Virus record (IMG/VR): IMGVR_UViG_3300025009_000054
Location: 1 to 64,000 of that record
From: a virus
Reading direction: 5' to 3' (one strand)
DNA: 64,000 bases
A program made the position numbers and the translations under genes. Below the pieces are notes generated by a model that saw nothing but the letters and a program-made list of their open reading frames with translations, did no database searches and was not told where the DNA came from. Numbering within the stretch: the first letter of the stretch is position 1; every line of letters begins with the position of its first letter. Shown in pieces: positions 22,895 to 64,000 of the stretch.

Positions 22895-23320
22895 TTATCC
22901 TCCTAACTCTATATCGTCTGCTGCCTCGCGCAACATCTTTACCAGTTCCTCTGCTGGAAGCTCGTCGATGAACCCGTACATGCATGTTAGTAACTTGTCG
23001 GCCTTCTCAGCATAGCTCATCGTTGAGTACTGGTTTAGTACGTAGTCTATGCTTGCTCCTAGCGCATCACCCTTCACATCTTTGTTGGGTATGAAGTTAT
23101 TTAGGTAGTCCTGACCATACCCCACCTTATGGCCACAACAATGATATACCTCAAGTACGATCTCGTTGTAGTCAGGTGATTCTACAATTGCGGCCTCTAT
23201 TGGGCTGCTACCATTTTCCCCGATAATAATTGGAGCGTTATTCCCAATCGCTATCGTCTGCGCTACCAACGAGTCAGCAGTTATCTTCTGCTGACAATTC
23301 GGACATGTTAGTGTTTTCAT
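22895..23320 (-). CDS. hypothetical protein, Zn-ribbon-like
   Basis: CPNC...HCCG. Confidence 0.65.
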   Translation of the reverse strand: MKTLTCPNCQQKITADSLVAQTIAIGNNAPIIIGENGSSPIEAAIVESPDYNEIVLEVYHCCGHKVGYGQDYLNNFIPNKDVKGDALGASIDYVLNQYSTMSYAEKADKLLTCMYGFIDELPAEELVKMLREAADDIELGG

Positions 23321-23649
23321 ATTGCTACCCACTCCTCATTTGATGAATAGTATGCAGTCGCGTCACCACGTTCCCAGTATGGAACGTACCCACCACGGTC
23401 GGCTCCCTCTGGATGATCCTCAAGGTAGCCTTCACCAGAATAGTTGGTTACTACTTCTTCGTGATCCCACGTATCATCTTTGTAGAAGTTCTGTACTAGT
23501 GTTACTTTGCCACGCATAGTCGCTGGGCTGTAATGTCGCTCATTCATCTCTTTTGCCAAATCTTCACTTGTTATCTCCGGTTCGTCTACCGGACATATCG
23601 ATTGGTTCTCGCATTGCTCTGCCGGAACCGGACAATCTTCGCAGTTCAT
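23317..23649 (-). CDS. hypothetical protein, paralogue of the C-terminal module of 49159..50286
   Basis: Shares HPEGADRGGYVPYWE...AYYSSNEEW. Confidence 0.8.
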   Translation of the reverse strand: MNCEDCPVPAEQCENQSICPVDEPEITSEDLAKEMNERHYSPATMRGKVTLVQNFYKDDTWDHEEVVTNYSGEGYLEDHPEGADRGGYVPYWERGDATAYYSSNEEWVAI

Positions 23650-24141
23650 AATCTCCTCCACTATCTCCGCATCCCACTCTCCATCAGTTAAGCGAGATGC
23701 TTTTACTTTCGCCTTGATATCGTCTGATAGTGCGCCCCATGTCGGGATCCTGGTATTCTTCGGATTCTTTTCATAGTCATTGGCGGTAAATTCGCGGTAT
23801 ATGTCGGTATACGCATTTTGTATCTCGCCACTATCAACATCACTTTATATATCACTTGACCAGTACCCTCTACATTCAGTATAGAGGAATCCGTATGTAG
23901 CTACGGTTCCATCCTTAAATACGATCAAGTTTCCTATCGTATTGTCTACCTGTGGACCAATGAAAATGTGATAATCTATTTCACTCCTAAATTTTGTTAT
24001 CATCGCTATCCTCCACACGCATTACAGTACATGCTACTACTCCATCGACACGAACCATTAAGTCTGCAGCATCTCTGACTAAGTCAACTGCATTATGGCT
24101 ACTAATGACCTCAGTATCAAACTCAATCTCTAATTTAATTC

Positions 24142-45062: not shown

Positions 45063-47963
45063 CTATACTTGACGTCTCGCAACTCGCTGCTCATATTCCA
45101 CTTCAGCCTCAGCCTGACTACGAGCAGCTATGTAGTCGTTCTCGTCAAATTGACCATCCTGTATATCGTATTTGCTGTAATTGAAGTCATCAATTAGGAT
45201 TTCCTCAGTACGGTCTACAATCTCCTGCGATGCAGTTCTCATAGCCGATGCAGAAAATGGCATTGGATCCTGACTAGGAATACCACTAGTTCCACCTACT
45301 GATGGTCCGCTAGTTTCCCATGGAAGATTTCCGGCACCAGGCTGCCTACCCATCTGCGTGTCGAAGTCATTAGTTTTCTGTTCTTTACTTTTAAGATCCT
45401 CAACACGTCTTTTCTTTTTATCTTCTACGATACTGAGAATCCTCGCGGCTTCATTTGTTGCGTGAGAAGCAAGCCTACTACTTACACCATTGGCAATATC
45501 ATAAGCCCTTACCCACCTATCATATGAGCTGCCACCCATTCTACGTGCCATTGACTCTAGCATAGCAATATATCGCTTGCCATCTTCACCAGCATTCTTA
45601 ATCGTAGTTATGGTAGAAGCTAGATCCTGTACTATATGATCATCACTTGAGCCACGATAATCTGCACCAAGATCATTATATGCTTTCATATAGGCACCCT
45701 CAAGATCGCCTATATATCTCAATTGTGCGGCTCTATCCTCAGCTAATGCCATCTGAGTATTTGCCGGTAATCCCCATCTAGAATCGTGATCACCCATGGG
45801 TTTACCAAGAGTAGTAATAGATTTTTGATGATCTCGACCAAATGGATCACTATCCTCAAGCCCAGCTTCATCTTTATTACTATTCATTTCGTTCATGATT
45901 TGATCGGCAGTTGGACCAGCTTCGTGTGGTCCAACTCCAACATCTTTAAGTGTCATCTTTAAAGCATCTTTAAGGCTATTAGATCTATTTCTATTTGCAA
46001 GCAGTTTATCCGTAAAACGAGTCTTACCACTAGACGACCCATCTACATTAATGGATGAACTTGTACTATGATTTACCGCATCACCAGTTGGTGTACTAAG
46101 TACATCCGACAATTCACCATCAGTCTGTGCGGTTCTCATTCCAGTATCGCCACTAACCTCATGCCAGCCATCACTGTCATATCTATTTTTTACTCTCTGA
46201 CACTCAGCGTCACCATAGCAATCAGTAAGCAATTTGCCAGTCTCGGCATCTATGAAATCAAACCACGCCTCTTCTCCATCATGACTATGATCACTCTTGA
46301 TCATATATCCATTACTTACGTCACCATCCATGTCGCGAGTGGCGTGGCCTTCCAATTGATCTTCATGCCTCTGATCAGCATGAATGTCATCGTATTTATT
46401 ATCGTCTTGTGCTGTACGTCTGCCAGGTGACGGGTCATCATTATCGTCACTATCATATATACCAGCGCACATATTCTGTGCAGCCTCTCTAGACAATCTC
46501 TTTTTATGCCCAGTCTTACCAACGCCACAGCTCATAAGGTGAGCAACATGCCCATCAAATCCGCCTTCAAATGAGCCATCTTCGTTCATATGTCTGCAAT
46601 AGTGCTTCTTCGCTTCTACCTTTACCAGTCTAGCGAATTTATCCATATTGCGGGCACCACTGAAAAATCCACTCTGTGGTATAGATATATGCCCATCCCC
46701 ACGGAATTCTTCATCACTACGTATACCTAACTGCGTATCGGTATCAAAGTCGCGATGCATAGCCGGACTATCGTACTGACTGCGTTCTCTATCCTCATGA
46801 TATCCACACGATACGCATTCCATCTTAGCCCAGTGTGGTCCACCACCAGGAATCTCTTCCATATCATTTCCACACTCTGGACAACTACCCATTTCAGAAG
46901 TATCAGCATGGTACTGACTAGTCTTAATTTTCTTAGATTTACCATCTACACCAGCAGTATCAATCTCTACTATATTGAAATCTTTTATGCTATCTTCATA
47001 TTTCTTATCAGTAGGATTACCAAGATGCTGATTATGAGGTTCGGACAGCTCTACTGGCATGGTAAACGGAAGTGCTTCTCTTCCTTTAGGTGCTGAGACA
47101 TCGAACCCAAGATTTGCAATCTCATCAATAACTTCTTCAACATCATCACTGGACATTGATGAATTCATCTTCATCATACCATTGAAAACAGTCTGTATGT
47201 CCTGTCTCGTTTTTTGAGCTACTCTGAGAACCTCTTCGGCCATTCTAGGTGCCGATAATGGTGCACCAGGGAATACTGGATTTCCCCAAGGTCCACCTTT
47301 AAACCCTGCAGCAGTCTTATTCATAGCTGTTAGCTGGTTATGTACTATACTTTCATCACCATTTGGTGAAATATCGGTGCGGTCTGACATCTTACGTGTA
47401 CCAGATTTAGCTATACCAAGATCAACAGCCATATCTTCAAGACTCGGCTTTTCAAGTTGATCTAGAGCGGATGCAACTACCTCATCAAACTGCTCCGGAT
47501 CCAAGTTTTCCTTGAAATAGGTCATAGCCTTATCACGGTGTGTCCTAAAGAACAGACCTATATCATCGATCAGCTCTGTTCTAGTAAGAGTGTCAGCATC
47601 TTTACCGGTATTAAACGTAGTTAGTGCTTTATTAGTGGTGTCTACCATGCTGTCATCATTAGGATCGTCTACTGCATATCGACCATTTGCATATGTCACT
47701 ACAACCGGCATCTTAGATTGGCCTGTCGGGTTAACATATACAACGTCAAACTGTAGTTTTGCTACCCTAACGTTGCCAACACCACACGCATTGATGTCTA
47801 CGTTGAGCATATCCATGCCAGTAAACGAAGCCTGAGCCCCATCCAGTTTCAGAGACTTACAGTATTCACTTACCTTCTTATATGCACATTCGACTAGTCG
47901 GTGACGCTCATCACTACCAATCGATCTATCACTATTCGTATTGAGCGCGGCTTGTATACGCAT
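45063..47963 (-). CDS. 966-aa acidic modular protein, putative virion internal/cargo polyprotein
   Basis: KTAA, RRTAQ, MRTAQ and MRTAS motifs; internal CPEC...CVSC Zn ribbon. Confidence 0.7.
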   Translation of the reverse strand: MRIQAALNTNSDRSIGSDERHRLVECAYKKVSEYCKSLKLDGAQASFTGMDMLNVDINACGVGNVRVAKLQFDVVYVNPTGQSKMPVVVTYANGRYAVDDPNDDSMVDTTNKALTTFNTGKDADTLTRTELIDDIGLFFRTHRDKAMTYFKENLDPEQFDEVVASALDQLEKPSLEDMAVDLGIAKSGTRKMSDRTDISPNGDESIVHNQLTAMNKTAAGFKGGPWGNPVFPGAPLSAPRMAEEVLRVAQKTRQDIQTVFNGMMKMNSSMSSDDVEEVIDEIANLGFDVSAPKGREALPFTMPVELSEPHNQHLGNPTDKKYEDSIKDFNIVEIDTAGVDGKSKKIKTSQYHADTSEMGSCPECGNDMEEIPGGGPHWAKMECVSCGYHEDRERSQYDSPAMHRDFDTDTQLGIRSDEEFRGDGHISIPQSGFFSGARNMDKFARLVKVEAKKHYCRHMNEDGSFEGGFDGHVAHLMSCGVGKTGHKKRLSREAAQNMCAGIYDSDDNDDPSPGRRTAQDDNKYDDIHADQRHEDQLEGHATRDMDGDVSNGYMIKSDHSHDGEEAWFDFIDAETGKLLTDCYGDAECQRVKNRYDSDGWHEVSGDTGMRTAQTDGELSDVLSTPTGDAVNHSTSSSINVDGSSSGKTRFTDKLLANRNRSNSLKDALKMTLKDVGVGPHEAGPTADQIMNEMNSNKDEAGLEDSDPFGRDHQKSITTLGKPMGDHDSRWGLPANTQMALAEDRAAQLRYIGDLEGAYMKAYNDLGADYRGSSDDHIVQDLASTITTIKNAGEDGKRYIAMLESMARRMGGSSYDRWVRAYDIANGVSSRLASHATNEAARILSIVEDKKKRRVEDLKSKEQKTNDFDTQMGRQPGAGNLPWETSGPSVGGTSGIPSQDPMPFSASAMRTASQEIVDRTEEILIDDFNYSKYDIQDGQFDENDYIAARSQAEAEVEYEQRVARRQV

Positions 47964-48030
47964 TTGTACTCAACCTCCATCCCAACGCGTGTTGGGTATC
48001 ATACTTACACTACCATTAGTATAGTAGAGC

Positions 48031-49140
48031 CTACGACCAGGAATCCACTATCGTAGCACCACCGGACATTGCATTAGCCATGTCCTGTTCCTCGGTATCA
48101 TATACTCTAACAGACGATGGCATCGATTTACGCCCATCATTATATGCAGCCTTGATTGCCATAGAATCTCCATCTTCTACATATGGAAGCCTATCGTAAT
48201 ACTCAGGCGTCTCATCTAGATGAGCAAGAGCTATTTTAGCCGTCTCGATATCATCGTCGTCTGTGATGTTATTTTTACCAGCCTTAGTCCCATGCTCCAG
48301 CTCCACGTTTAGCCCATCGCAGAAGTCTTCTACCGTGAACGGGTTTGTATCCCAATTTATGCCAAGCTTCTCACCGATCTTCTTGGCTTCATCAATAGAG
48401 AATTTAGAGCGATGTTCCTTTTGTGCCGATACAGTCTTACATCTTGGGCATTTCTTACCTGTAAACTTCATACCACACTGTTTACATCTTACTTCTTGCA
48501 CTTCTTCTTCATATGGACCATGAATGCCCTTGTCGTACCGTTCTCCGTTAACCCTAACTTCTCCACCAGGCCATATTGAGACAGCCTTTTCACCATAAGC
48601 ATTCATGAGATATCCGGTAACATCGTTGATCCTTTGATCTTCAGCATGCTCCGCTGCTTCTTCACGCTGCTTCTTCATCTTCATCATGTACCCAAGCCAG
48701 CGTTTATGCTTCTCCTGCTTCTCCTGGTCTGATAGTCCAGCTACTGCGGCCATGCCACTCCGCTCGTGTATGTCCTCTACAATCTCGTCCATTTCAGACT
48801 GTGGGATTTTAGAACGTACACCATGTGGTATGTCATGCTCATGTTTAACCGAAATAACATCGTCACGGTCAACATTCTCGTCAAATAGGTCAATAGCAGT
48901 ATGTATGGGATGCTCAACGTAGTTTGGCATGGATTCACCAGTTGGGTAAACGAACGTGTAGCCACTCCTACCCTTCTTAGTGACCACTACATTATCGTCA
49001 CCCATGACATATATACGAGTATCTCTATCTGGAAGATCGTACCTCTCGCGTACTACAATACCAGGTTCATTATCTGGTCCAAGTTCTGTTGCCCTCATTT
49101 GAGCTATTCTACCTGGACCAGTAAATCGAATACTATCCAT
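48031..49140 (-). CDS. modular protein with DUF5661-like domain
   Basis: GLNVELEHG...TDDD..TAKIALAHLDETPEYYDRL; CKQC..CPRC. Confidence 0.7.
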   Translation of the reverse strand: MDSIRFTGPGRIAQMRATELGPDNEPGIVVRERYDLPDRDTRIYVMGDDNVVVTKKGRSGYTFVYPTGESMPNYVEHPIHTAIDLFDENVDRDDVISVKHEHDIPHGVRSKIPQSEMDEIVEDIHERSGMAAVAGLSDQEKQEKHKRWLGYMMKMKKQREEAAEHAEDQRINDVTGYLMNAYGEKAVSIWPGGEVRVNGERYDKGIHGPYEEEVQEVRCKQCGMKFTGKKCPRCKTVSAQKEHRSKFSIDEAKKIGEKLGINWDTNPFTVEDFCDGLNVELEHGTKAGKNNITDDDDIETAKIALAHLDETPEYYDRLPYVEDGDSMAIKAAYNDGRKSMPSSVRVYDTEEQDMANAMSGGATIVDSWS

Positions 49141-49158
49141 TACTAACTCCAGTCAGCT

Positions 49159-50286
49159 CTATACGCTAGCCCATTCCTCATTAGACGAATAATACGCCTT
49201 AGCTCCATTGCATTCCCAATATGGAACATATCCTCCGCGATCTGCACCCTCTGGGTGGGCGTCAACATATCCAGTTCCAGGGCAGTCAATGGGCTTTTCA
49301 TCTATGCCCAGTATTTGAACCTTACCTTTATTTACATCTGGGAACGCAGACTTCTGATTCAGCTCTTCAGCTAACTCTTCATTAGTCATAGAATCACCGC
49401 CAGAACCTGACATATCGTACTGTGCAGTTCTTGGTTCAGAGTTATCAGAGTAGCCACCCTGCTGTAGGGCATTATCGAATTCTTTTCTATCCCAGGTATG
49501 CTGTTCATTATCTTCTGTGGGCCCACCTACACCATGAATAGCTAGCACTATCGCATTATAGGCATCGCCATCTTGAGATCCAGGCTCAACATCACTGATA
49601 AGACCATTAGGACCGGAGACTTCTATGCTGCCCCACTCTGAATCTGACTCATATGAGACTCCATTGATTAGCCACTCTTGGTGGAAGTTACCATCATTTT
49701 CATCAGTCGATACGAGCCGAATATTGATGGTACCACCCTGCTCTTGTGCGGTTCTTGGTTTACCACTGTTAAGTTCATCCTGATCTGCGGGAGCGGTAGT
49801 CATATCTTGATACTTCACTACATATTTTGGTTTTCCGGTAGTGGGATCAATTGTAGAGCTGTCGATAGTACCGGATTTACCATTATAATTCACCTGCTGG
49901 CCATTACTATAGGTCTGCTGTGCCGTTTTCGACATAGCAACCTTGGCCCCACCAAACGATAGTGGCTTTAGACCTTTCGCTTGCAAGTAGCCACGTACCA
50001 TGTCATCATCGTCATCTTGCGCTCTAACAAGCATTTCGCCATCAACCATCCATATAGCTCCAGTTGACGGATGCTGATATACGCCCTTACCGTGATCTAC
50101 TAGCTGCGCGGTTACAGACCTACTAAACGGCACACTATCCCTGCCCTCTAGAACTACAGAAGTAGGGTCAATTTTATTACTAGCCGTCCTCATGCTGGCT
50201 GTCCGGTTCTCAGCGATAGCATCGGATTCTAAGTCTGTAAGAAAACTTGGCAGTTCATCGTACTGCCGCGCTATTTTTCTAAACAT
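49159..50286 (-). CDS. modular putative virion cargo polyprotein
   Basis: RTASMRTAS, KTAQ and two PRTAQ; last module paralogous to 23317..23649. Confidence 0.75.
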   Translation of the reverse strand: MFRKIARQYDELPSFLTDLESDAIAENRTASMRTASNKIDPTSVVLEGRDSVPFSRSVTAQLVDHGKGVYQHPSTGAIWMVDGEMLVRAQDDDDDMVRGYLQAKGLKPLSFGGAKVAMSKTAQQTYSNGQQVNYNGKSGTIDSSTIDPTTGKPKYVVKYQDMTTAPADQDELNSGKPRTAQEQGGTINIRLVSTDENDGNFHQEWLINGVSYESDSEWGSIEVSGPNGLISDVEPGSQDGDAYNAIVLAIHGVGGPTEDNEQHTWDRKEFDNALQQGGYSDNSEPRTAQYDMSGSGGDSMTNEELAEELNQKSAFPDVNKGKVQILGIDEKPIDCPGTGYVDAHPEGADRGGYVPYWECNGAKAYYSSNEEWASV

Positions 50287-50352
50287 GTGACACCTCCAAA
50301 GTGTTTGCTAATCAATATAGTAGGGTATGAGATATTTACGGTGATGTTCAAA

Positions 50353-50385
50353 AGTGTAGACGCACAACGAGAGCTAGGTGGTGCC
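50353..50385 (-). promoter_or_regulatory. ECF-type promoter motif copy heading the run that includes the ECF sigma gene
   Basis: AGTGTAGACG-N17-GGTGCC. Confidence 0.8.
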
Positions 50386-50393
50386 AATAATAA

Positions 50394-52127
50394 CTACCTG
50401 TAACGACTTCTATTCATGGGCGCACCGCCACCTCCACCAGATAATCCTCTACCCATCGCAGGGGTTCTCGCCCTCTGTCCTCCACCGCCACGGATAACAC
50501 GCTTAATATGCATGAGTTTATCTGCTATATAGCATACCATGGCATCAGCACATGGGTGATCGTCGTGTTCACCATTTGGCGCACAAATCTTCTTATTAGG
50601 AGAGTTTAGCATGGTGTGTTTTTCTAGGTTTTCCCATTGTCTAACCGAATTCTGAAATGGCTTATGGCCACTACCACCATCATACCCATCAATAGCTGAC
50701 CTATCTGGATATTTAAATAGCCCACGGTCAACTTCCATAAGTATGTGGTCAAATATGGCATTTTTCCAGTTTTTGCCAGATTCTGGGTCTGTCCTACTGT
50801 ACATAATACCATATACGCCAATACCCTTCAAACTCTGCCTAGCAAAATCGAGTACAGGCTGTCCGCATCCGGTCATATCAATGATTAACGCTTTACATGG
50901 GAATCTTCCATCTTTTGATATCAGCGACCTAACCCACTCAAGCTGTACGGTGTAGTCAGTGCCGTACCTCTCATCGCTATGCACTTTAGTCTTTAGATCT
51001 TCCACTTTCCTAACAATACTGAGTGCAGACCAGTCATTTTTACCAGTACCATCAGAATCGGTTGATGAACCTCCAGCAGGATCCCATGATGCATAGTATT
51101 CGCCACCATCCCATGATGTGCTACCATGTATTATCGGACCACCACCAAGCATGCCCTCTACCTGCTCTTCACTAAAGAAGAGGTCTGCATCTACAAGCCA
51201 TTCAAGCATATACTGTGTTCGGAAGTCATCTGGTATCATATCTCCAGGTAGATCGTGTATCCTCATTGTACGTCCATCGACTATAACAATCGGGTTATGA
51301 GGATATGTCTCCTGCTTGATAGCTATCGGCATTCGATCAAGTACATATCTAGATGTCTGTGTTCCATCTACATCGATAGTACCAGATCTATTGAGGATCC
51401 CGCACATTTCCCATGGGAATATACACTTCGTATATGTCGGGTCTTTGAACGAGTGATGAAAGTGGTTACGTAGTCTTGGTGTGCCGGACTTTATAATTCT
51501 TGCTCCCCAAGCACCTCCCATTGGGAGGATTACTTCGGAGACGACCTTATCGCTTACTTTCTGCGACTCGTCAATCATTATCAATCCAGCACTAAAACCT
51601 TCGATATTTGCCATTTCACTAGCTGACGCCTGTGAAATCTGAATACCTGGTTCACGTGACCATTTAGTACCCTTATCCTTAAAGACGATTGTACCCTTGG
51701 TAGACGATTTCCAATCAACTATATCATCAAAGTATGGCCTATACCTAGCACGTTCATGTATACGGTTAAGTACTAATGCAGCTTGACCTTCTCTAGGACC
51801 AAATATGAGTATATTACCGTGTTCCTTCTTCGTGTACCTATCGCCAAGAATAAGGGATCCCTGCGCCAGAGAGTCGGTCTTTCCTGTCTGTCTTGTCATA
51901 AGTAGACAGACCTTAGCCAGAGCTCTATTTGCAATGGCGTTTACTGCGGCAATCTGGTTCTCATAGACAACGATGCCCATGTTCTTCTCAACATAGTACC
52001 TATTATCTAATTCAGCCGCAAAGATATTGCCGATATCAGTAGCTGTTATTCCATTATACGCTGGTTGCTGCGACAATTTCTTCACCTTTAGTCTTATAGA
52101 TATACTTCTCGGCGAGTTCATGTCCAA
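50394..52127 (-). CDS. terL: terminase large subunit
   Basis: Walker A MTRQTGKT, Walker B IMIDESQ, SGTP coupling motif, nuclease residues ASWDPAG...IDMTGCG...HDDHPCAD. Confidence 0.9.
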   Translation of the reverse strand: MDMNSPRSISIRLKVKKLSQQPAYNGITATDIGNIFAAELDNRYYVEKNMGIVVYENQIAAVNAIANRALAKVCLLMTRQTGKTDSLAQGSLILGDRYTKKEHGNILIFGPREGQAALVLNRIHERARYRPYFDDIVDWKSSTKGTIVFKDKGTKWSREPGIQISQASASEMANIEGFSAGLIMIDESQKVSDKVVSEVILPMGGAWGARIIKSGTPRLRNHFHHSFKDPTYTKCIFPWEMCGILNRSGTIDVDGTQTSRYVLDRMPIAIKQETYPHNPIVIVDGRTMRIHDLPGDMIPDDFRTQYMLEWLVDADLFFSEEQVEGMLGGGPIIHGSTSWDGGEYYASWDPAGGSSTDSDGTGKNDWSALSIVRKVEDLKTKVHSDERYGTDYTVQLEWVRSLISKDGRFPCKALIIDMTGCGQPVLDFARQSLKGIGVYGIMYSRTDPESGKNWKNAIFDHILMEVDRGLFKYPDRSAIDGYDGGSGHKPFQNSVRQWENLEKHTMLNSPNKKICAPNGEHDDHPCADAMVCYIADKLMHIKRVIRGGGGQRARTPAMGRGLSGGGGGAPMNRSRYR

Positions 52128-52434
52128 TAATACGTTCTGGCTTTACTCCAAGCTTTGCGGCACGTTCAATACCCTGCCCGACGCCTTCTTCCATTTCACC
52201 ATCTGAGAGTGGTCCTTCAGCTAGTGCCTCTGATACGACGTGTGCTTCCTTATTGGCACGATCATCATTACAATAAAATCCTGGTCCAATAAATCTTGTA
52301 GCTACACGACGTGATAGCTGTTTTTCTGTTTTAGTACCACAGGCACATTCCGGTCCATTATTCATTTCAGAAACAGATCTAAATACTTCCTGAGTATCTC
52401 CGCATTTTGTACACTTATATTCATAGAGTGGCAT
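52054..52434 (-). CDS. FmdB-family zinc-ribbon protein
   Basis: MPLYEYKCTKCG...CACG...FIGPGFYCND. Confidence 0.85.
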   Translation of the reverse strand: MPLYEYKCTKCGDTQEVFRSVSEMNNGPECACGTKTEKQLSRRVATRFIGPGFYCNDDRANKEAHVVSEALAEGPLSDGEMEEGVGQGIERAAKLGVKPERIIGHELAEKYIYKTKGEEIVAATSV

Positions 52435-54041
52435 TATCCACACCTCCTAAGGTTTCTTGCTTTTACTATAAATCTACGTGCGGCACCACGCCATTCCCTA
52501 GATGGATCATCATGGAAGTTGCGTGTAGTCTGATGGTTTATATCTTTATCCCACTGTCCGGTGTATTTACCATCAGATAGATCTAATAATTCTTCATTAA
52601 CATTAAATAGATCTGTGTTGGCGAAATTATCTCCATTTGGTGTGTACTCGATGATGGATCCGCCGTTATGGTGGACATGCACACCATAGCTTACTGCAGC
52701 GGCAAGTTGCCCATCATCTTTTGCATTTGTAATCATGTAGTACAGCGTGCTTATTCCAATGGCCGCATCATCGCTAACTGAGTTACCATCTTTACTCCTA
52801 CCTGGTAGCATCGCCGCTGAGTTCATTAAATTTGATATTATCATCATTCCAATAGAGTTGTTTAACAGCGATATCTCCGTAAACAACTCTGACATATACC
52901 ATATATCATCGATGTCACTTTTATATTCCTCAGGTATACGATTTATCGCCCTGTACACGACATCAGGATATTCTTTCTTCAATTGGTCGACGAATCCATG
53001 TACGACGCTCAATTTCCCATTTTGTCTAAGGGCAAATGATATCGATGATATATGGCCTACTGCCCATTCCATACATGCGTTTTCAAATTCATACGCCATA
53101 CGGCTAGTTACGTCCTTGAATTCCGACTGCAACTTATCATAGTCAGCCATAGCATTACCGCCGAACGACAACTTATATTCAAGCTCGTACCACCTTTTGA
53201 TGAGGTCTACATCTATTGAGATGCCATCGGCTTGTGCTGTTCTCATACTAATAGATTCACCTTGACTATCAACCAATATATCCCTAATCGTAGTACCTGT
53301 AGTAATCACAACTCCTGGATTAATATAATATGTCTTACTATTATCACTGTTACTAAACTTCCATATTGACTCAGCCTCATCACTACCGAAATATAATGCA
53401 CTCTCCCCTAATGATGCCTCCAATGCTATTGCTAGATCATCACCACGACCTGGATTATCACTAAAGTCTGGTCTGCCAGGGCATATATATCCAGCCATTA
53501 TATCGTACAGTGTTATAGCGCTATCCCTTGGCTCATCTAGAAAATCATATCCAATATTATGAAACCACTCCTGTATATCATCAAGGTTCGATCTTATCCA
53601 TTGATTAAACGGATCACTCTGTGCTGTTCTCATAGCTGTGGTATTAAACTGGCCAGGCACAGGTATTACTGGCTCTACTACAGGTTGATAATTTGGATTG
53701 TCACCACCGATGGATTCTTCCCACGTTTTCGGCTTATTCTTACCAAAGTATACTGCCGCAGCTAGCGCATGGCTACAGAACCTGTTGCGCAAGTGGAATC
53801 TCTGCATAATCTTGCACCACTGGCCCCACAAACAGTCACAGCTCCACCAGTTTACAGCCTCTGGGTTTGATCTACCACCAGGATATGCGAGTACTATATT
53901 GTATGTACCATGATGGCCATCAACTGTACCCTCAAATCGCTCTGGTGTCATCACACTTGGATGAACAGCACCACTATGGTATAGCTTAAATGCCTTACGC
54001 TTTACATCAGACCACGCGGCCTTACGTTCCATCTCATTCAT
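52434..54041 (-). CDS. SWIM zinc-finger modular protein, putative virion cargo
   Basis: WSCDCLWG...CSHALA; two MRTAQ; N-terminal ERKAA. Confidence 0.75.
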   Translation of the reverse strand: MNEMERKAAWSDVKRKAFKLYHSGAVHPSVMTPERFEGTVDGHHGTYNIVLAYPGGRSNPEAVNWWSCDCLWGQWCKIMQRFHLRNRFCSHALAAAVYFGKNKPKTWEESIGGDNPNYQPVVEPVIPVPGQFNTTAMRTAQSDPFNQWIRSNLDDIQEWFHNIGYDFLDEPRDSAITLYDIMAGYICPGRPDFSDNPGRGDDLAIALEASLGESALYFGSDEAESIWKFSNSDNSKTYYINPGVVITTGTTIRDILVDSQGESISMRTAQADGISIDVDLIKRWYELEYKLSFGGNAMADYDKLQSEFKDVTSRMAYEFENACMEWAVGHISSISFALRQNGKLSVVHGFVDQLKKEYPDVVYRAINRIPEEYKSDIDDIWYMSELFTEISLLNNSIGMMIISNLMNSAAMLPGRSKDGNSVSDDAAIGISTLYYMITNAKDDGQLAAAVSYGVHVHHNGGSIIEYTPNGDNFANTDLFNVNEELLDLSDGKYTGQWDKDINHQTTRNFHDDPSREWRGAARRFIVKARNLRRCG

Positions 54042-54060
54042 ATTATACTCCTATGTGGTA

Positions 54061-55044
54061 CTATCCTTTATTTCTAGTTTGCAACGTATTACGTTCTGGT
54101 ATCTTATAGTAATCGATACCCATATCATCATTATATGCAGACTCAAGTTGTGGCCTATCGATAACATATATCTGGCTATTATCGAACACTATATATGATT
54201 TCCCACCCTCATATTCGTTATCATAGATAATTCCATCATAACCCTTAGACTTAAGGACGCTCACAAAATCTTGTGGAGTTTTTATCGTACCATCAGTAAA
54301 CTCCTCAGATACTCGACTATCACTACCGAACGCATTTTTGAGATTCTGTACCTCGTCCCAATATAAGGGATCACGATTAGTGTACATAGGGTTATTTATA
54401 CGCAAATACGCACGAAATACGTATGGGTCGGTATCACTCTCGTATCTATCATATGACGACTCTACGGCACCAGTCATATTATCGAAAGTACCCTTATCTC
54501 CAAAGTGGAAACCAATATCACCGTGTTCAAAGGTAGTAAAATCCTTATCAGTTATGTGATACACCACCATCGGCTTTCCATTACCATCAACTACCTTTGA
54601 TCCATTAAACCACGCCTCTACATCTGTATCTGTAGTTTGTGATGCTCTCTGTCCTGGAAATCTATTGGTTACAGGTGATCCCACGGTGCTCGGCATGTAA
54701 CCACGTGTAGCATCATTGATTTCCATCCCGCCCATTACAGGACTAACATTAAATAACATTAATAGGTCTGGATTGTCCTTCGATTCTTCTACGATATTTC
54801 CAATAGCTGTTACTCGATCAGGATATGTGTCCGCATTATACAAATCTATAAATAGCGGCTTATACTTGTCTGCGGCCATAGCTGACTGCTCACTACTGTA
54901 GATGATATCGGCGTATCCTATGAGCTGATTATAGAGATCATCAACTAGTTTTGGGTCGAACCATCCTTGTGAATCATTTCTATATAATTCACCAAGCTCA
55001 ATGACGTTAATTTGTTGTGCCGAAGACTTCATTTGTTCCTCCAT
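54061..55044 (-). CDS. protein with ART-PolyVal-like ADP-ribosyltransferase-fold domain
   Basis: WFNGSKVVDGNGKPMVVYH...GFHFG...AYLRINNP...GYDGIIYDNEYEG..SYIVFD. Confidence 0.7.
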   Translation of the reverse strand: MEEQMKSSAQQINVIELGELYRNDSQGWFDPKLVDDLYNQLIGYADIIYSSEQSAMAADKYKPLFIDLYNADTYPDRVTAIGNIVEESKDNPDLLMLFNVSPVMGGMEINDATRGYMPSTVGSPVTNRFPGQRASQTTDTDVEAWFNGSKVVDGNGKPMVVYHITDKDFTTFEHGDIGFHFGDKGTFDNMTGAVESSYDRYESDTDPYVFRAYLRINNPMYTNRDPLYWDEVQNLKNAFGSDSRVSEEFTDGTIKTPQDFVSVLKSKGYDGIIYDNEYEGGKSYIVFDNSQIYVIDRPQLESAYNDDMGIDYYKIPERNTLQTRNKG

Positions 55045-56441
55045 TGCTGAATCCTACTCTCTATATACGCCTTAATCTTCTCGTATGTTGCACGATACAC
55101 TTGATGACCCTTCATATAGGTATTGTAGAATGGGTCACTCTCGTCTTCTTTAGGGCGCACTAGACCCATCTTTTCCATATCCTCAATCTCACCTTCCCAA
55201 GCGATATCGGCAGCGAGTTGTGCGTACTTATATGGGTCTTTAAGCACTCTCTTCGTTGCAGGTGAGTTATCGGTTAGCGCATTTCCAATGAGGTCAAATA
55301 CGTGCCTATCTTCTAGTCTTACAGCAACATCCCCAGGCGTACAATACGCAAAATCTCTACCTTGGGCTGTCATGATATATATCTGGCGTTCGGCATCCCA
55401 TGTTGCTGTATATGGATTCTCGAAATCACCTGGCTCGTACCAATCGTCGTTATCATCACCACCGTATCCACGATCTATATCTATCGGAGTACGCGGTGGT
55501 GCAGTCGTTATCCTTGATTGTGCCTCTCTCCATCCAAATATTTTTGACACATGAGAAAGCATTTCATTGGACATGCCATGCTTCCTTCTCTCTTCCTTCA
55601 ATGTAGATAGTACATGTATATACCCATATCTTTCAAGGATTTTGTATACAATATTGGCTGGTAGCCAATTTCTAGACATCTTAAATATCTCATCATCTGA
55701 TGCGTCCATTGGCATGTTGAAAGCGGATATTCTTTCTTGATGAATCTGTTCATATTGCTTAACCATGCGACGTATATCAGCATCAACCTCGGCCATAGCA
55801 CCAATAAGCCTAAACGTAAACCACTTATCGAGCTGACCATCAGCCTCTGATGCATATTCCCTAAGTAGTCTTAGATCGGTTAAGTCTCTACTAAGTTTGC
55901 CACCTTCAATATCAAACATTCGTGCGTAGTGGATGGCTTTCATCCATATAAAGTCCATTATGCCACGTGGGCTCCATGATATATCAAGATGCGGAGGCAT
56001 CTTTAGCCATACATTACCGTCAATACTGTATATGGCATCGGATTCAAGCTTATTATCAGTCCTCATATAATAATTAATGGGGTGATGTGTTCCTGGTATT
56101 ACTTCACCGTTAATGCCACGAATAATATGAAGTAATGTGGTCCACGCATCCTTCTCATCAGCATCAACCCCATTAGCCATTTCAAACTTATCCCTATCAA
56201 TAATTACAGTGACATCAATATCGCTGTCATTTGTCCACTGTTCAGTTGCTGAGCTACCGATAAGATATAGTAATGTCCACTGATTCGGGTCATTGAAGTA
56301 TCCGGATAAAGCATCGAATATGCGTAGAGTCACCATGCCCTTTATATCATCACGTAGTACTGGCACATCATCAGATGTGTTCCATATATCCGGCGACAGC
56401 TTATTGTGTGGAAGGTCGATAATCGACGCTTTTCTATCCAT
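55029..56441 (-). CDS. pol-beta-superfamily nucleotidyltransferase domain protein
   Basis: LIGSSATEQWTNDSDIDV...HPINYY. Confidence 0.78.
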   Translation of the reverse strand: MDRKASIIDLPHNKLSPDIWNTSDDVPVLRDDIKGMVTLRIFDALSGYFNDPNQWTLLYLIGSSATEQWTNDSDIDVTVIIDRDKFEMANGVDADEKDAWTTLLHIIRGINGEVIPGTHHPINYYMRTDNKLESDAIYSIDGNVWLKMPPHLDISWSPRGIMDFIWMKAIHYARMFDIEGGKLSRDLTDLRLLREYASEADGQLDKWFTFRLIGAMAEVDADIRRMVKQYEQIHQERISAFNMPMDASDDEIFKMSRNWLPANIVYKILERYGYIHVLSTLKEERRKHGMSNEMLSHVSKIFGWREAQSRITTAPPRTPIDIDRGYGGDDNDDWYEPGDFENPYTATWDAERQIYIMTAQGRDFAYCTPGDVAVRLEDRHVFDLIGNALTDNSPATKRVLKDPYKYAQLAADIAWEGEIEDMEKMGLVRPKEDESDPFYNTYMKGHQVYRATYEKIKAYIESRIQQWRNK

Positions 56442-63026: not shown

Positions 63027-64000
63027 TATCCAGCACCCTCAATTAACGTAATATTGGACACTACCAGTTGTGGCTTATCCCTATTATTCGATACCTTACC
63101 TCGCATCATGCAAATAACACCGTTCTTAGCATATTCACCACAATTGATATATGCCTTGGGGAATATTACAAAGTCTAGTGTCTGTTCATCATCAGCAATA
63201 ACTCCCATACACATATCTTCTTTCTTCGCATGTGTCTTAACAATACGCGCCGATGAAATTCGCCCTAAGACGGTTAATTCACAGCCCTCATTGGCTAGGG
63301 CAGTATCCATGCTTACAGCTTCATGCGTGAGAACCTGGTATCTCTCTTTGTAATAGACGAGCGATGATACCGTTAGCTCATTACCGAGTAAACTACGCTC
63401 AGCATTTGCTATTTCTACATGTGACATGCCAGCCGCAATTCTACAACCTGGATTTACTACCTCAAATGCTCCAGCTTTAAATAGTGCTTCTCTCATCGCG
63501 GAGTTAACTATCTTGGCAGGCATCCTGGCCTTTAGATCATCGATTGAAGTGAATGGACCGTTGGCATCACGTTCCACTATGATTTTCTCTGCGCATCCAG
63601 ATATACCTCTAACTGACTGCAATCCTAGATATATAGACCCATCAGTTGGTGTATATTCACATAACGATGAATTGATATCCGGTGGCCTGAGATGGATTCC
63701 ACGTTTTCTACATTCCAGAATGAGTGTGGGCTTTCTATCTTCCTTCGCGTGATTGAGCATCGCCGCGAAGAACTGCGATGGGTATTTTGCTGATAGCCAT
63801 GCTGTCCAGCATGTAATTACTGCATAACTTGAAGCGTGTGCCCTATTGAATGAGTATCCTGCGAAGAGCTCTATGTTGTCCCATAGGGCAGTCGCCTTCT
63901 CCCTGGACATACCTCTCTCGACTGCTCCATTAGTAAACGCTTCCCTATAAGGCTGTATTATTTCTTTCTTTTTCTTCGATACAGCCTTAACGATCTTATA
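63026..64000 (-). CDS. dnaE: DNA polymerase III alpha subunit, C-terminal part (5' end outside window)
   Basis: FAGYSFNRAHASSY, PPDINSS, GLQSVRGI and OB fold; frame open to 64000. Confidence 0.93.
   Translation of the reverse strand, partial: YKIVKAVSKKKKEIIQPYREAFTNGAVERGMSREKATALWDNIELFAGYSFNRAHASSYAVITCWTAWLSAKYPSQFFAAMLNHAKEDRKPTLILECRKRGIHLRPPDINSSLCEYTPTDGSIYLGLQSVRGISGCAEKIIVERDANGPFTSIDDLKARMPAKIVNSAMREALFKAGAFEVVNPGCRIAAGMSHVEIANAERSLLGNELTVSSLVYYKERYQVLTHEAVSMDTALANEGCELTVLGRISSARIVKTHAKKEDMCMGVIADDEQTLDFVIFPKAYINCGEYAKNGVICMMRGKVSNNRDKPQLVVSNITLIEGAG

What the first reader, a model, noticed from the sequence alone, without database searches (positions are those of the whole stretch)
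45063..56441. Recurring (M/P/R)RTA(Q/S) linker motif partitions several large proteins into modules: candidate protease-processed capsid cargo polyproteins
Seen: MRTAQ at 46125-46139, 53232-53246 and 53619-53633; PRTAQ at 49420-49434 and 49744-49758; RRTAQ, MRTAS and KTAA in 45063..47963; RTASMRTAS and KTAQ in 49159..50286. Looser versions occur near N-termini (RKAS, RKAA, KIAR, RIAQ, KRAS). The full motifs are confined to genes around the terminase and separate unrelated-looking domains (SWIM finger, Zn ribbon, SH3-like, acidic modules). Codons vary between copies, so conservation is at the protein level. Known: T4 gp21 and phiKZ gp175 prohead proteases cut internal head proteins at short motifs (after Glu in those cases). 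Inference: a basic-x-Ala cleavage or capsid-targeting code lets the phage load many independent effector domains as polyproteins.
Basis: partly seen in the sequence, partly recalled or inferred. Interest (0 to 1): 0.82.

Follow-up and report, generated by a model that had tools for sequence, protein, structure and literature searches.

The report
Phage protein modules joined by RTAQ
Three multi-part proteins next to the DNA-packaging gene of an uncultured 143-kb phage are punctuated by a short peptide, Arg-Thr-Ala-Gln/Ser, whose only other copies in the genome sit in the phage's own capsid-maturation protease, so it is most likely that protease's cutting site, although no cut has been measured.

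Summary
Every coordinate checks. RTA[Q/S] occurs 11 times in the 45,142-aa proteome (0.85 expected; maximum 5 in 2000 shuffles), and the codons differ between copies.

Nine copies lie in the three flagged proteins (966, 375 and 535 aa). The other two lie outside the window, both in a 1162-aa protease-scaffold fusion between the portal and capsid genes (chance of two or more: 3.5e-4). Both are kept in its only homolog (about 50% identical), although the flanks of one have diverged.

The motif marks true module borders:
- Pieces of the 966-aa protein are separate genes in related phages.
- One homolog starts exactly after MRTAQ.
- The last module of the 375-aa protein duplicates a free-standing gene.
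- Homologs only 24-29% identical keep [KR]-[TQ]-A-Q at the same spot.

No other protease is detectable, and nested translation starts are excluded.

The best reading is a cleavage code read by the prohead protease, probably cutting after Ala as herpesvirus assemblin does. Cleavage, packaging and effector roles remain inferred. The "looser N-terminal versions" are not supported.

This scan has already found similar linker-punctuated phage polyproteins with other motifs on other DNA, so I class it as a new variant of a known kind.

The parts
45063..47963 (-). 966-aa multi-module protein with four motif copies (KTAA at aa 216, RRTAQ 515-519, MRTAQ 609-613, MRTAS 908-912). It is a fusion of units that are separate genes in related phages.
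   Evidence: HMMER hits P0013-15 (N-terminal part), P0018 (aa 450-502) and P0016 (aa 615-742 onward). Contig-length linkage.
47307..47321 (-). NKTAA site. It aligns with MKTAQ, MRQAQ and VRQAQ in homologs 24-29% identical; the Ala is invariant.
46407..46421 (-). RRTAQ site, after the P0018-like module and before an acidic 94-aa module.
46125..46139 (-). MRTAQ site. The free-standing homolog P0016 begins to align 2 residues after it.
45228..45242 (-). MRTAS site, just after the GPSVGGTSGI block that lies near the C-terminus of P0016. It is followed by a 55-aa acidic tail.
49159..50286 (-). 375-aa protein with five motif copies. If cut after Ala, the predicted pieces are 30, 5, 87, 58, 108 and 87 aa.
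50179..50208 (-). Tandem NRTAS-MRTAS, 27 residues from the N-terminus, which suggests a short N-terminal peptide like the one on the protease.
49918..49932 (-). SKTAQ site.
49744..49758 (-). PRTAQ site.
49420..49434 (-). PRTAQ site. The module starting 10 residues later (aa 300-375) is 46% identical to the free-standing gene product of 23317-23661.
52434..54041 (-). 535-aa protein: a SWIM-type Zn module (aa 1 to about 100), then two further modules separated by two MRTAQ sites.
53619..53633 (-). MRTAQ site, after the SWIM module and its linker.
53232..53246 (-). MRTAQ site, before the 266-aa C-terminal module.
50394..52127 (-). Large terminase (context). Nearest deposited relative is Bacillus phage G gp1 at 31.6%; metagenomic relatives are 49-53% identical.
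23317..23661 (-). Free-standing 114-aa paralog of the last module of the 375-aa protein.
54061..55044 (-). 327-aa protein with an ART-PolyVal ADP-ribosyltransferase domain (context; no strict motif).
50353..50392 (-). Copy of the phage's private ECF-type promoter motif, 67 nt upstream of the 375-aa gene. It drives the 375/369/966 operon.

Best explanation
[R/K]-T-A-[Q/S] is a proteolytic processing site read by the phage's own prohead (capsid-maturation) protease.

That protease is the N-terminal domain of a 1162-aa protease-scaffold fusion encoded between the portal and major capsid genes (genome 126854-130342, outside the window). It carries the motif twice. One copy is 24 residues from its N-terminus, ahead of the protease domain. 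The other is 124 residues from its C-terminus, ahead of an acidic tail, a position like the herpesvirus 'M-site' that frees the scaffold from the capsid shell.

The same motif joins the modules of three proteins flanking the terminase gene. Cutting at it would turn them into about 14 separate small, mostly acidic proteins.

What is shown: the motif's extreme enrichment and restriction to these four proteins; its conservation in homologs; its position at real module borders; and the absence of another recognisable protease.

What is inferred: that it is cut at all; that the prohead protease does the cutting; that the bond is after Ala (by analogy with assemblin A|S and A|T sites); and that the three proteins are loaded into the procapsid before cutting.
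For: 1. Enrichment: 11 copies against 0.85 expected (maximum 5 in 2000 shuffles), all in 4 of 194 proteins.

2. Out-of-sample test: of 24,519 aa encoded outside the window, the only two copies are both in the protein with the head-maturation-protease domain (phrog_18299, E 8.9e-15). The chance of two or more there is 3.5e-4.

3. Both protease-scaffold copies are conserved in its only homolog, P0011 (about 50-55% identical). The flanks of the C-terminal copy have diverged.

4. An N-terminal [RK]-T-A-[SA] element ahead of the protease domain also aligns in phage G gp19, which a preprint annotates as the head maturation protease (10.1101/2024.12.16.628780).

5. Module borders:
- P0016 aligns from its residue 6 to residue 615 of the 966-aa protein, right after MRTAQ.
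- P0018 is a free-standing form of aa 450-502.
- The last module of the 375-aa protein is a paralog of a separate gene.
- Contig lengths show that relatives carry the pieces as separate genes beside the terminase.

6. Homologs 24-29% identical keep MKTAQ, MRQAQ or VRQAQ at the position of the window's NKTAA, with the Ala invariant.

7. Flanks are linker-like, and codons vary between copies.

8. No MPTase-PolyVal, S78, ClpP or S77 match and no HExxH anywhere in the genome.

9. Precedent: prohead proteases cut themselves and many head proteins at one short motif (SPN3US A-X-E: PMC10052503, PMC5694885). Assemblin cuts its protease-scaffold fusion after Ala (PMC4498786).
Against: - No cleavage, virion or expression data exist for this uncultured phage.
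- The major capsid protein and the portal have no strict copy.
- No copy lies between the protease domain and the scaffold, where an assemblin-type release site would be.
- The junction between the P0014-like and P0018-like parts of the 966-aa protein has no motif.
- The 375/369/966 operon is driven by a promoter class found mostly before small non-structural genes, and none lies directly before the head genes.
- The protease family is assigned only by a PHROG profile and distant BLAST hits. Pfam gives nothing, and the structure prediction failed (pLDDT 27.7).
- The contig is only about 82% complete, so another protease could be missing.
- Phage E3, which has a related protease, shows no such RTA[QS] concentration, so the code is lineage-specific.
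Confidence: 0.55

Rival explanations
1. The motif is a cleavage site, but it is read by another protease: a host enzyme, or a phage enzyme in the missing 18% of the genome. Processing would then be cytoplasmic and unrelated to capsid loading.
For: - The contig is about 82% complete.
- The cargo operon is not obviously co-regulated with the head genes.
- The capsid and portal proteins lack the motif.
- An earlier follow-up on another phage (e1-5645143) favoured a neighbouring zinc protease for a similar linker.
Against: - No other protease family and no HExxH signature is detectable in 142.7 kb.
- This reading would leave unexplained why the only other carrier of the motif is the prohead protease-scaffold protein, at two conserved positions typical of self-processing.
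Confidence: 0.15
2. The motif is not cut. It is a short docking or targeting peptide, for example one bound by the scaffold, the capsid interior or the protease as an exosite, repeated so that multi-module proteins are tethered inside the procapsid.
For: - The enrichment, conservation and co-occurrence with the scaffold protein fit it as well as they fit cleavage.
- P1 DarB uses a capsid localisation signal (PMC9024508).
Against: - The motif sits exactly at module borders, in polar linkers.
- It occurs where relatives have gene boundaries, which points to separation rather than tethering.
- Its position before the protease domain and before the scaffold's C-terminal tail matches known self-processing sites (PMC4498786, PMC5694885).
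Confidence: 0.15
3. The motif is a site of covalent modification, not of cleavage: for example Arg ADP-ribosylation by the neighbouring ART-PolyVal enzyme, or Thr phosphorylation.
For: - An ART-PolyVal gene lies two genes away.
- Arg or Lys, and Thr, are the conserved residues of the motif.
Against: - Lys replaces Arg in two window copies and in homologs, and Gln replaces Thr in homologs, while the Ala is invariant. That pattern suits a protease subsite better than a modified residue.
- Modification does not explain the module-border positions or the copies in the protease-scaffold.
Confidence: 0.05
4. There is no function: the motif is a chance or compositional repeat, a DNA-level repeat, or the N-termini of nested internal translation starts (Met-Arg-Thr-Ala-Gln).
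For: - Five of the 13 [RK]TA[QSA] copies are preceded by Met.
- The MRTAQ at aa 609-613 aligns with the start Met of the free-standing homolog P0016.
Against: - Shuffles never reach the observed count, and codons differ between copies.
- Real genes have GGAG-type ribosome-binding sites, and the internal Met sites have none. Pro, Asn, Arg and Ser replace Met in eight copies.
- The motif is conserved in distant homologs.
Confidence: 0.03

Closest known systems
Prohead-protease processing of internal head and ejection proteins in T4 (gp21; IPI-III, Alt), phiKZ (gp175) and SPN3US (gp245)
   Same: One short motif is shared by the protease itself (self-cleavage) and by several head proteins. Some proteins carry several sites, and some have short N-terminal peptides of about 20-25 residues (PMC5694885, PMC10052503). 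Here the motif is likewise shared by the protease-scaffold protein and three multi-site proteins, two of them with a site 24-27 residues from the N-terminus.
   Different: - Those proteases cut after Glu (L/I-x-E, S/A/G-x-E, A-x-E) and belong to the T4 gp21 family. This genome has no S77 match, and the motif has no Glu.
- There, cleavage mostly removes N-terminal propeptides. Here the sites separate whole modules that are independent genes in relatives.
- Capsid and portal proteins are substrates there but carry no strict motif here.
Herpesvirus assemblin and scaffold (pUL26: N-terminal protease, scaffold, C-terminal capsid-binding tail, cut at the R- and M-sites after Ala)
   Same: The domain order is the same in one polypeptide. 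One site lies near the C-terminus, ahead of a tail (RTAS at 1039-1042 of 1162, against the M-site VQA|S). A small residue (Ala) is followed by Ser, Thr or Gln (PMC4498786).
   Different: - No site lies between the protease and the scaffold, so there is no R-site equivalent.
- An extra site precedes the protease domain.
- Arg/Lys and Thr are required upstream.
- Fold and catalytic residues are not established here; only an invariant His101 and Ser156 are seen in a three-sequence alignment.
- Herpesvirus assemblin is not known to process cargo polyproteins.
Polyvalent proteins of phages and conjugative elements (Iyer et al. 2017, PMC5512222)
   Same: - Multi-module proteins with shuffled, swappable domains, encoded beside terminase and portal packaging genes and predicted to be packaged and injected.
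- A neighbouring gene has the ART-PolyVal domain.
- The SWIM and ART modules match internal stretches of PHROG profiles 824-1664 positions long.
   Different: - The three motif proteins contain none of the signature polyvalent domains.
- There is no built-in MPTase or other peptidase. In the passages I read, processing is attributed to such built-in peptidases, and I saw no mention of a short linker motif shared with the prohead protease.
Protease-scaffold fusions of phage G (gp19), Rhodococcus phage E3 (gp77) and Cluster C mycobacteriophages
   Same: - These are the nearest sequence relatives of the protease domain (24-34% identity), with the same Cys-rich insert and invariant His and Ser.
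- E3 has the same gene order, and a SWIM-module protein lies directly upstream of its protease.
- Phage G gp19 has K-T-A-A aligned to the N-terminal RTAS.
   Different: - E3 shows no concentration of RTA[QS] in head proteins: 6 scattered single copies against about 2 expected.
- No cleavage sites have been published for these phages in the papers I could search.

Membership tests
Prohead-protease-processed head/cargo proteins (T4, phiKZ, SPN3US type) | The phage encodes a prohead maturation protease in its head module. | tested here: met
   phrog_18299 'head maturation protease' at E 3.5e-13 (whole protein) and 8.9e-15 (domain alone). The gene lies between the portal and the major head protein. 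Relatives are annotated as prohead protease in E3 and phage G.
Prohead-protease-processed head/cargo proteins (T4, phiKZ, SPN3US type) | The substrates share one short motif with the protease's own self-processing sites. | tested here: met
   RTA[QS] occurs only in the three flagged proteins and in the protease-scaffold protein (2 copies, P 3.5e-4, conserved in P0011).
Prohead-protease-processed head/cargo proteins (T4, phiKZ, SPN3US type) | The major capsid protein and the portal are also substrates. | tested here: not met
   Neither has a strict motif. There are only R-A-Q near the capsid protein's N-terminus and one REAQ in the portal.
Prohead-protease-processed head/cargo proteins (T4, phiKZ, SPN3US type) | Cleavage after Glu by a T4 gp21-family (S77) protease. 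| tested here: not met
   No PF03420 match, and the motif has no Glu.
Prohead-protease-processed head/cargo proteins (T4, phiKZ, SPN3US type) | Cleaved products are demonstrated in virions (semi-specific peptides, Edman sequencing). | not testable with these tools
   This is an uncultured phage known only as an IMG/VR contig.
Polyvalent proteins (Iyer et al. 2017) | Two to 15 unrelated, shuffled domains in one polypeptide. | tested here: met
   Modules have free-standing homologs or a paralog, and are separate genes in relatives. The SWIM module occurs in other architectures.
Polyvalent proteins (Iyer et al. 2017) | Signature domains are present (ART-PolyVal, MPTase-PolyVal, LPDs, DdrB-ParB and others). 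| tested here: not met
   No such domain occurs in the three motif proteins. ART-PolyVal is in a separate neighbouring gene. MPTase-PolyVal is absent from the genome.
Polyvalent proteins (Iyer et al. 2017) | Encoded next to terminase or portal packaging genes. | tested here: met
   The three genes flank the large terminase gene. The portal, however, is about 75 kb away.
Assemblin-type protease-scaffold fusion | An N-terminal serine protease followed by a scaffold in one polypeptide, with a processing site ahead of a C-terminal tail. | tested here: met
   Protease domain at aa 48-214; about 900 aa of repeat-rich, acidic sequence follows; RTAS at 1039-1042 of 1162 is conserved in P0011.
Assemblin-type protease-scaffold fusion | A release site between the protease domain and the scaffold. 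| tested here: not met
   No [RK]TA[QSA] lies between aa 28 and 1039.
Assemblin-type protease-scaffold fusion | Assemblin/HK97-protease fold with catalytic Ser and His. | tested here: inconclusive
   His101 and Ser156 are invariant in a three-way alignment. However, Pfam S78 gives no hit, PDB has no sequence hit, and the AlphaFold model is unusable (pLDDT 27.7).

The most novel reading that the evidence does not exclude
A phage lineage related to phage G and the Cluster C/E3 actinophages uses an Ala-type cleavage code, R-T-A|Q/S, that has not been described before. The code is read by an N-terminal protease fused to its scaffold. The same code lets neighbouring cargo genes fuse into polyproteins and split again during evolution without loss of the individual products: the 966-aa protein equals at least three separate genes in relatives. 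That would make short protease linkers a general evolutionary 'glue' for capsid cargo, with a specificity closer to herpesvirus assemblin than to the Glu-specific T4-type proteases.
Probability: 0.45. Interest if true: 0.65.

Novelty: new variant of a known kind. Interest (0 to 1): 0.55.

Why it matters
If this reading is right, it predicts the substrate specificity of an uncharacterised prohead-protease family, the one shared with phage G, the only cultivated megaphage, and with the large Cluster C group of mycobacteriophages.

The motif also gives a sequence rule for finding cargo proteins in the many uncultured relatives.

The fused and unfused states in related phages would show gene fusion and fission of virion cargo being tolerated because a protease restores the separate products.

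The specificity (Ala, not Glu) would tie phage and herpesvirus maturation proteases together by substrate as well as by fold.

In practice, the site and protease pair could serve as a packaging-and-release tag. This scan has met similar linker-punctuated polyproteins with other motifs in other phages, so the value lies in adding a well-controlled case with a distinct code, not in a new principle.

Tried and rejected
- **Nested internal starts at Met-RTAQ:** rejected. The internal sites have no ribosome-binding site, and real genes have strong ones.
- **DNA-level repeat:** rejected. Codons differ between copies.
- **Homologous N-terminal propeptide shared by the 375-aa protein and the protease:** not significant. 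p = 0.13, and many unrelated N-termini score higher.
- **Loose N-terminal motif [RK]-x-A-[QSAR]:** 18 of 194 proteins genome-wide, so weak and post hoc. RKAA in the 535-aa protein is part of the SWIM domain.
- **Generalised non-Thr motif:** only about 2.8-fold enriched in the four proteins.
- **My eyeballed alignment of E3 gp76 'RRTSMQSD' with the window's 'MRTAQSD':** not supported by BLAST.
- **E3 proteome scan:** no RTA[QS] concentration. My simple ORF caller is unreliable on that high-GC genome.
- **Related contigs:** not obtainable.
  - IMG/VR and GTDB genomes gave no relative.
  - JGI metagenomes gave only a 1.5-kb fragment.
- **Search with the 535-aa protein:** found only itself at near length.
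- **AlphaFold:** the protease domain (pLDDT 27.7) and the 375-aa protein (pLDDT 34) were both unusable, so no fold search was run.
- **ESM Atlas:** no usable leads for two large modules.
- **PDB sequence search of the protease domain:** nothing.
- **Other protease families and HExxH:** none.

Full report
**Setting.** The window is the first 64 kb of a single 142,704-bp IMG/VR phage contig that CheckV estimates to be 82% complete. Almost every gene is on the minus strand. The finding covers the genes around the large terminase (50394-52127). That terminase's nearest deposited relative is Bacillus phage G gp1 at 31.6% identity. Metagenomic relatives reach 49-53%.

- In the called proteome of the whole genome (194 ORFs, 45,142 aa), RTA[QS] occurs 11 times. 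Residue shuffles give a mean of 0.85 and a maximum of 5 in 2000.
- With Lys allowed at the first position and Ala at the last, there are 13 copies.
- Codons differ freely between copies (four Arg codons, all four Thr and all four Ala codons), so this is not a DNA repeat.
- The eight residues on either side are enriched in small and polar residues, 64% against 52% for random positions in the same proteins (p about 0.001).
- Nine strict copies lie in three proteins: 966 aa (45063-47963), 375 aa (49159-50286) and 535 aa (52434-54041).

**The decisive extra fact lies outside the window.**
Of the 24,519 aa encoded beyond base 64,000, exactly two RTA[QS] copies exist, and both are in one protein of 1162 aa at genome 126854-130342.
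- That protein sits between the portal (phrog_16240, E 4.5e-42) and the major head protein (phrog_2522, E 6.8e-55).
- Its N-terminal domain matches the PHROG 'head maturation protease' family: E 3.5e-13 for the whole protein and 8.9e-15 for the domain alone, at aa 48-214.
- The remaining roughly 900 residues are acidic and repeat-rich, and end in an acidic tail. This is a protease-scaffold fusion.
- The chance that this protein carries two or more copies is 3.5e-4.
- The copies sit at aa 25-28, just ahead of the protease domain, and at aa 1039-1042, 124 residues from the C-terminus.
- The protein's only detectable homolog, P0011 (1119 aa, about 50-55% identical), keeps both copies. Around the C-terminal copy the flanks have diverged.

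**The protease family.**
- The nearest annotated relatives of the domain are phage G gp19 (34%), the Cluster C mycobacteriophages, and Rhodococcus phage E3 gp77. The last is an 895-aa protein annotated 'prohead protease' with the same protease-scaffold layout.
- A three-way alignment shows an invariant His101, an invariant Ser156 in a V-S-M-G-C block, and a conserved Cys-rich insert.
- In the same alignment, phage G gp19 has K-T-A-A aligned to the N-terminal RTAS. A preprint annotates gp19 as the head maturation protease but reports no cleavage sites.
- Pfam models for S78, S77 and ClpP, and the polyvalent-protein MPTase, find nothing in the genome. No called ORF contains HExxH.
- So within the available 82% of the genome, this is the only recognisable protease.
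- Its fold could not be checked. PDB has no sequence match, and the AlphaFold model from a two-sequence alignment is unusable (pLDDT 27.7).

**The motif marks real module borders.**
- An exhaustive HMMER search with the 966-aa protein found seven proteins in all, and they map to separate parts of it:
  - P0013, P0014 and P0015 (24-29% identical) cover the N-terminal 330 residues.
  - The 92-aa P0018 matches aa 450-502 (54% identical).
  - P0016 (418 aa) aligns from its residue 6 to residue 615, two residues after MRTAQ. It also shares a G-P-S-V-G-G-T-S-G-I block near its own C-terminus with the stretch just before MRTAS at aa 908-912.
One 76,634-bp contig holds a related terminase, a P0014-type protein and a P0016-type protein. 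One 160,512-bp contig holds the same trio. So in relatives these are separate genes beside the terminase, and in the window phage they are fused, with RRTAQ and MRTAQ in the junction.
- In the 375-aa protein, residues 300-375, starting ten residues after the last PRTAQ, are 46% identical (E 3e-22) to the free-standing product of 23317-23661.
- In the 535-aa protein, the first module is a SWIM-type CxC...CxH domain that occurs in other architectures in actinophages. In phage E3 it lies in the gene directly upstream of the prohead protease.

**The motif is conserved in distant homologs.** Where the window protein has N-K-T-A-A (aa 215-219), the three N-terminal homologs have MKTAQ, MRQAQ and VRQAQ. 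The Ala is one of the few invariant columns in that alignment. The wider family consensus is therefore [KR]-[TQ]-A-Q, and this phage strongly prefers Thr.

**What was excluded.**
- Nested translation starts are unlikely. Real genes have GGAG-type ribosome-binding sites 6-10 nt upstream, the internal Met sites have none, and eight of the 13 copies have Pro, Asn, Arg or Ser instead of Met.
The pattern occurs in 18 of 194 N-termini genome-wide against about 6% expected. The RKAA of the 535-aa protein aligns with R-Q-A-A-W at the start of the SWIM domain in E3 gp76.
- Non-Thr variants are only about 2.8-fold enriched in the four proteins.
- An apparent similarity between the N-terminal peptides of the 375-aa protein and the protease is not significant (p = 0.13).
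- Phage E3 served as a control genome. There RTA[QS] occurs six times against about two expected, scattered singly over unrelated ORFs. So the clustering seen here is neither generic nor shared by the whole protease family.

**Mechanism proposed.**
- The simplest account is that [R/K]-T-A-[Q/S] is the recognition site of the prohead protease.
- The protease would trim its own 27-residue N-terminal peptide. It would also detach the scaffold from a 121-residue acidic C-terminal tail. This is the arrangement of the herpesvirus protease-scaffold protein, which is cut after Ala at Y-L-Q-A|T and V-Q-A|S (PMC4498786).
- By that analogy, and because the Ala is the invariant residue, I place the cut after Ala.
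- The three terminase-flanking proteins would then give about 14 products of 3.5 to 33 kDa plus one pentapeptide. All but the SWIM module and the pentapeptide are acidic or near neutral.
- Sharing one short motif between a prohead protease and many head proteins is established for T4, phiKZ and SPN3US, where the motif ends in Glu (PMC5694885, PMC10052503).
- Packaging of multi-domain 'polyvalent' proteins encoded beside terminase and portal genes has been predicted (PMC5512222). A neighbouring gene here carries that paper's ART-PolyVal domain.

**What remains inferred, and what argues against.**
- Nothing shows cleavage, virion location or any activity of the modules. Two Atlas look-ups gave no leads.
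- The capsid and portal proteins have no strict copy.
- There is no site between the protease domain and the scaffold.
- One fusion junction in the 966-aa protein has no motif.
- The 375/369/966 operon lies 67 nt downstream of a copy of the phage's private ECF-type promoter. Its other copies mostly precede small genes at 9-25 kb, and none lies directly before the portal, protease or capsid genes. So late, head-coupled expression is not evident.
- The missing 18% of the genome could hide another protease.

**Relation to the rest of the scan.** Earlier follow-ups report similar linker-punctuated phage polyproteins with other motifs (L/F-S-S-G, E-S-L-x-E, D-G-F-A-S-R-G, L-x-K) in other genomes. 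I did not test those. They suggest that the phenomenon recurs, and that this is one more instance with its own code.

**Verdict.**
- My confidence falls step by step:

| Claim | Confidence |
|---|---|
| The motif is functional and under selection | about 0.9 |
| It is a cleavage site | about 0.7 |
| The prohead protease reads it | about 0.55 |
| The three proteins are capsid cargo | about 0.45 |

- It is a new variant of a known kind.

Noticed in passing
L004:6572-9235 (genome 130572-133235), minus strand: The 887-aa portal protein appears to carry an intein. Portal homology covers aa 49-312. Residues of about 313-672 then match intein-bearing PHROGs (thymidylate synthase, RNR, PhoH) and a LAGLIDADG_3 domain at 552-601.
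   Followed up: no
L004:2854-6342 (genome 126854-130342), aa 449-660 of the protease-scaffold protein: Four tandem repeats of about 52-60 aa in the scaffold part. Each starts I-P-S-[AG] and ends near H-S-x-x-I-P. They are conserved in the homolog P0011. Their role is unknown, and they contain Ala-Ser or Ala-Thr pairs that could be weaker protease sites.
   Followed up: partly
L004:5608-6342 (protease domain), aa 166-182: A Cys-rich, zinc-ribbon-like insert (CxxC...CxC) inside the prohead protease domain, conserved in phage G gp19 and E3 gp77.
   Followed up: partly
window 50394-52127: The terminase ORF as listed starts at a TTG. The database copy (P0003) is 563 aa, so the true start is probably 14 codons downstream. 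That also reduces the overlap with the 129-aa Zn_ribbon_8 gene at 52054-52443.
   Followed up: no
L003:498-3725 (genome 104498-107725): Two collagen-like tail fibre proteins (450 and 614 aa) rich in G-x-Q-G repeats. These dominate the list of over-represented tetrapeptides in the proteome.
   Followed up: no
P0021 (relative on the 160.5-kb contig), aa 1-10: An alternative upstream start call adds nine residues ending in R-T-A directly before the Met that starts the sister protein P0014. This is either a chance match or a very short N-terminal peptide with the same motif.
   Followed up: no
Rhodococcus phage E3 (L008-L010) compared with this genome: E3 and this phage share several features: genome size (about 142.5 kb), a DnaE-type polymerase, phage sigma factors, a SWIM-module protein and a protease-scaffold fusion in the head module. 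This suggests a distant common lineage despite very different G+C content.
   Followed up: partly
window 48031-49140: The 369-aa protein between the 375-aa and 966-aa genes has a DUF5661 domain (E 1.5e-13) and a CxxC...CxxC ribbon, but no strict motif. It has only G-R-I-A-Q at aa 10-14, which resembles the S-R-I-A-Q found in P0011 where the window's protease-scaffold has S-R-Q-A-Q.
   Followed up: partly
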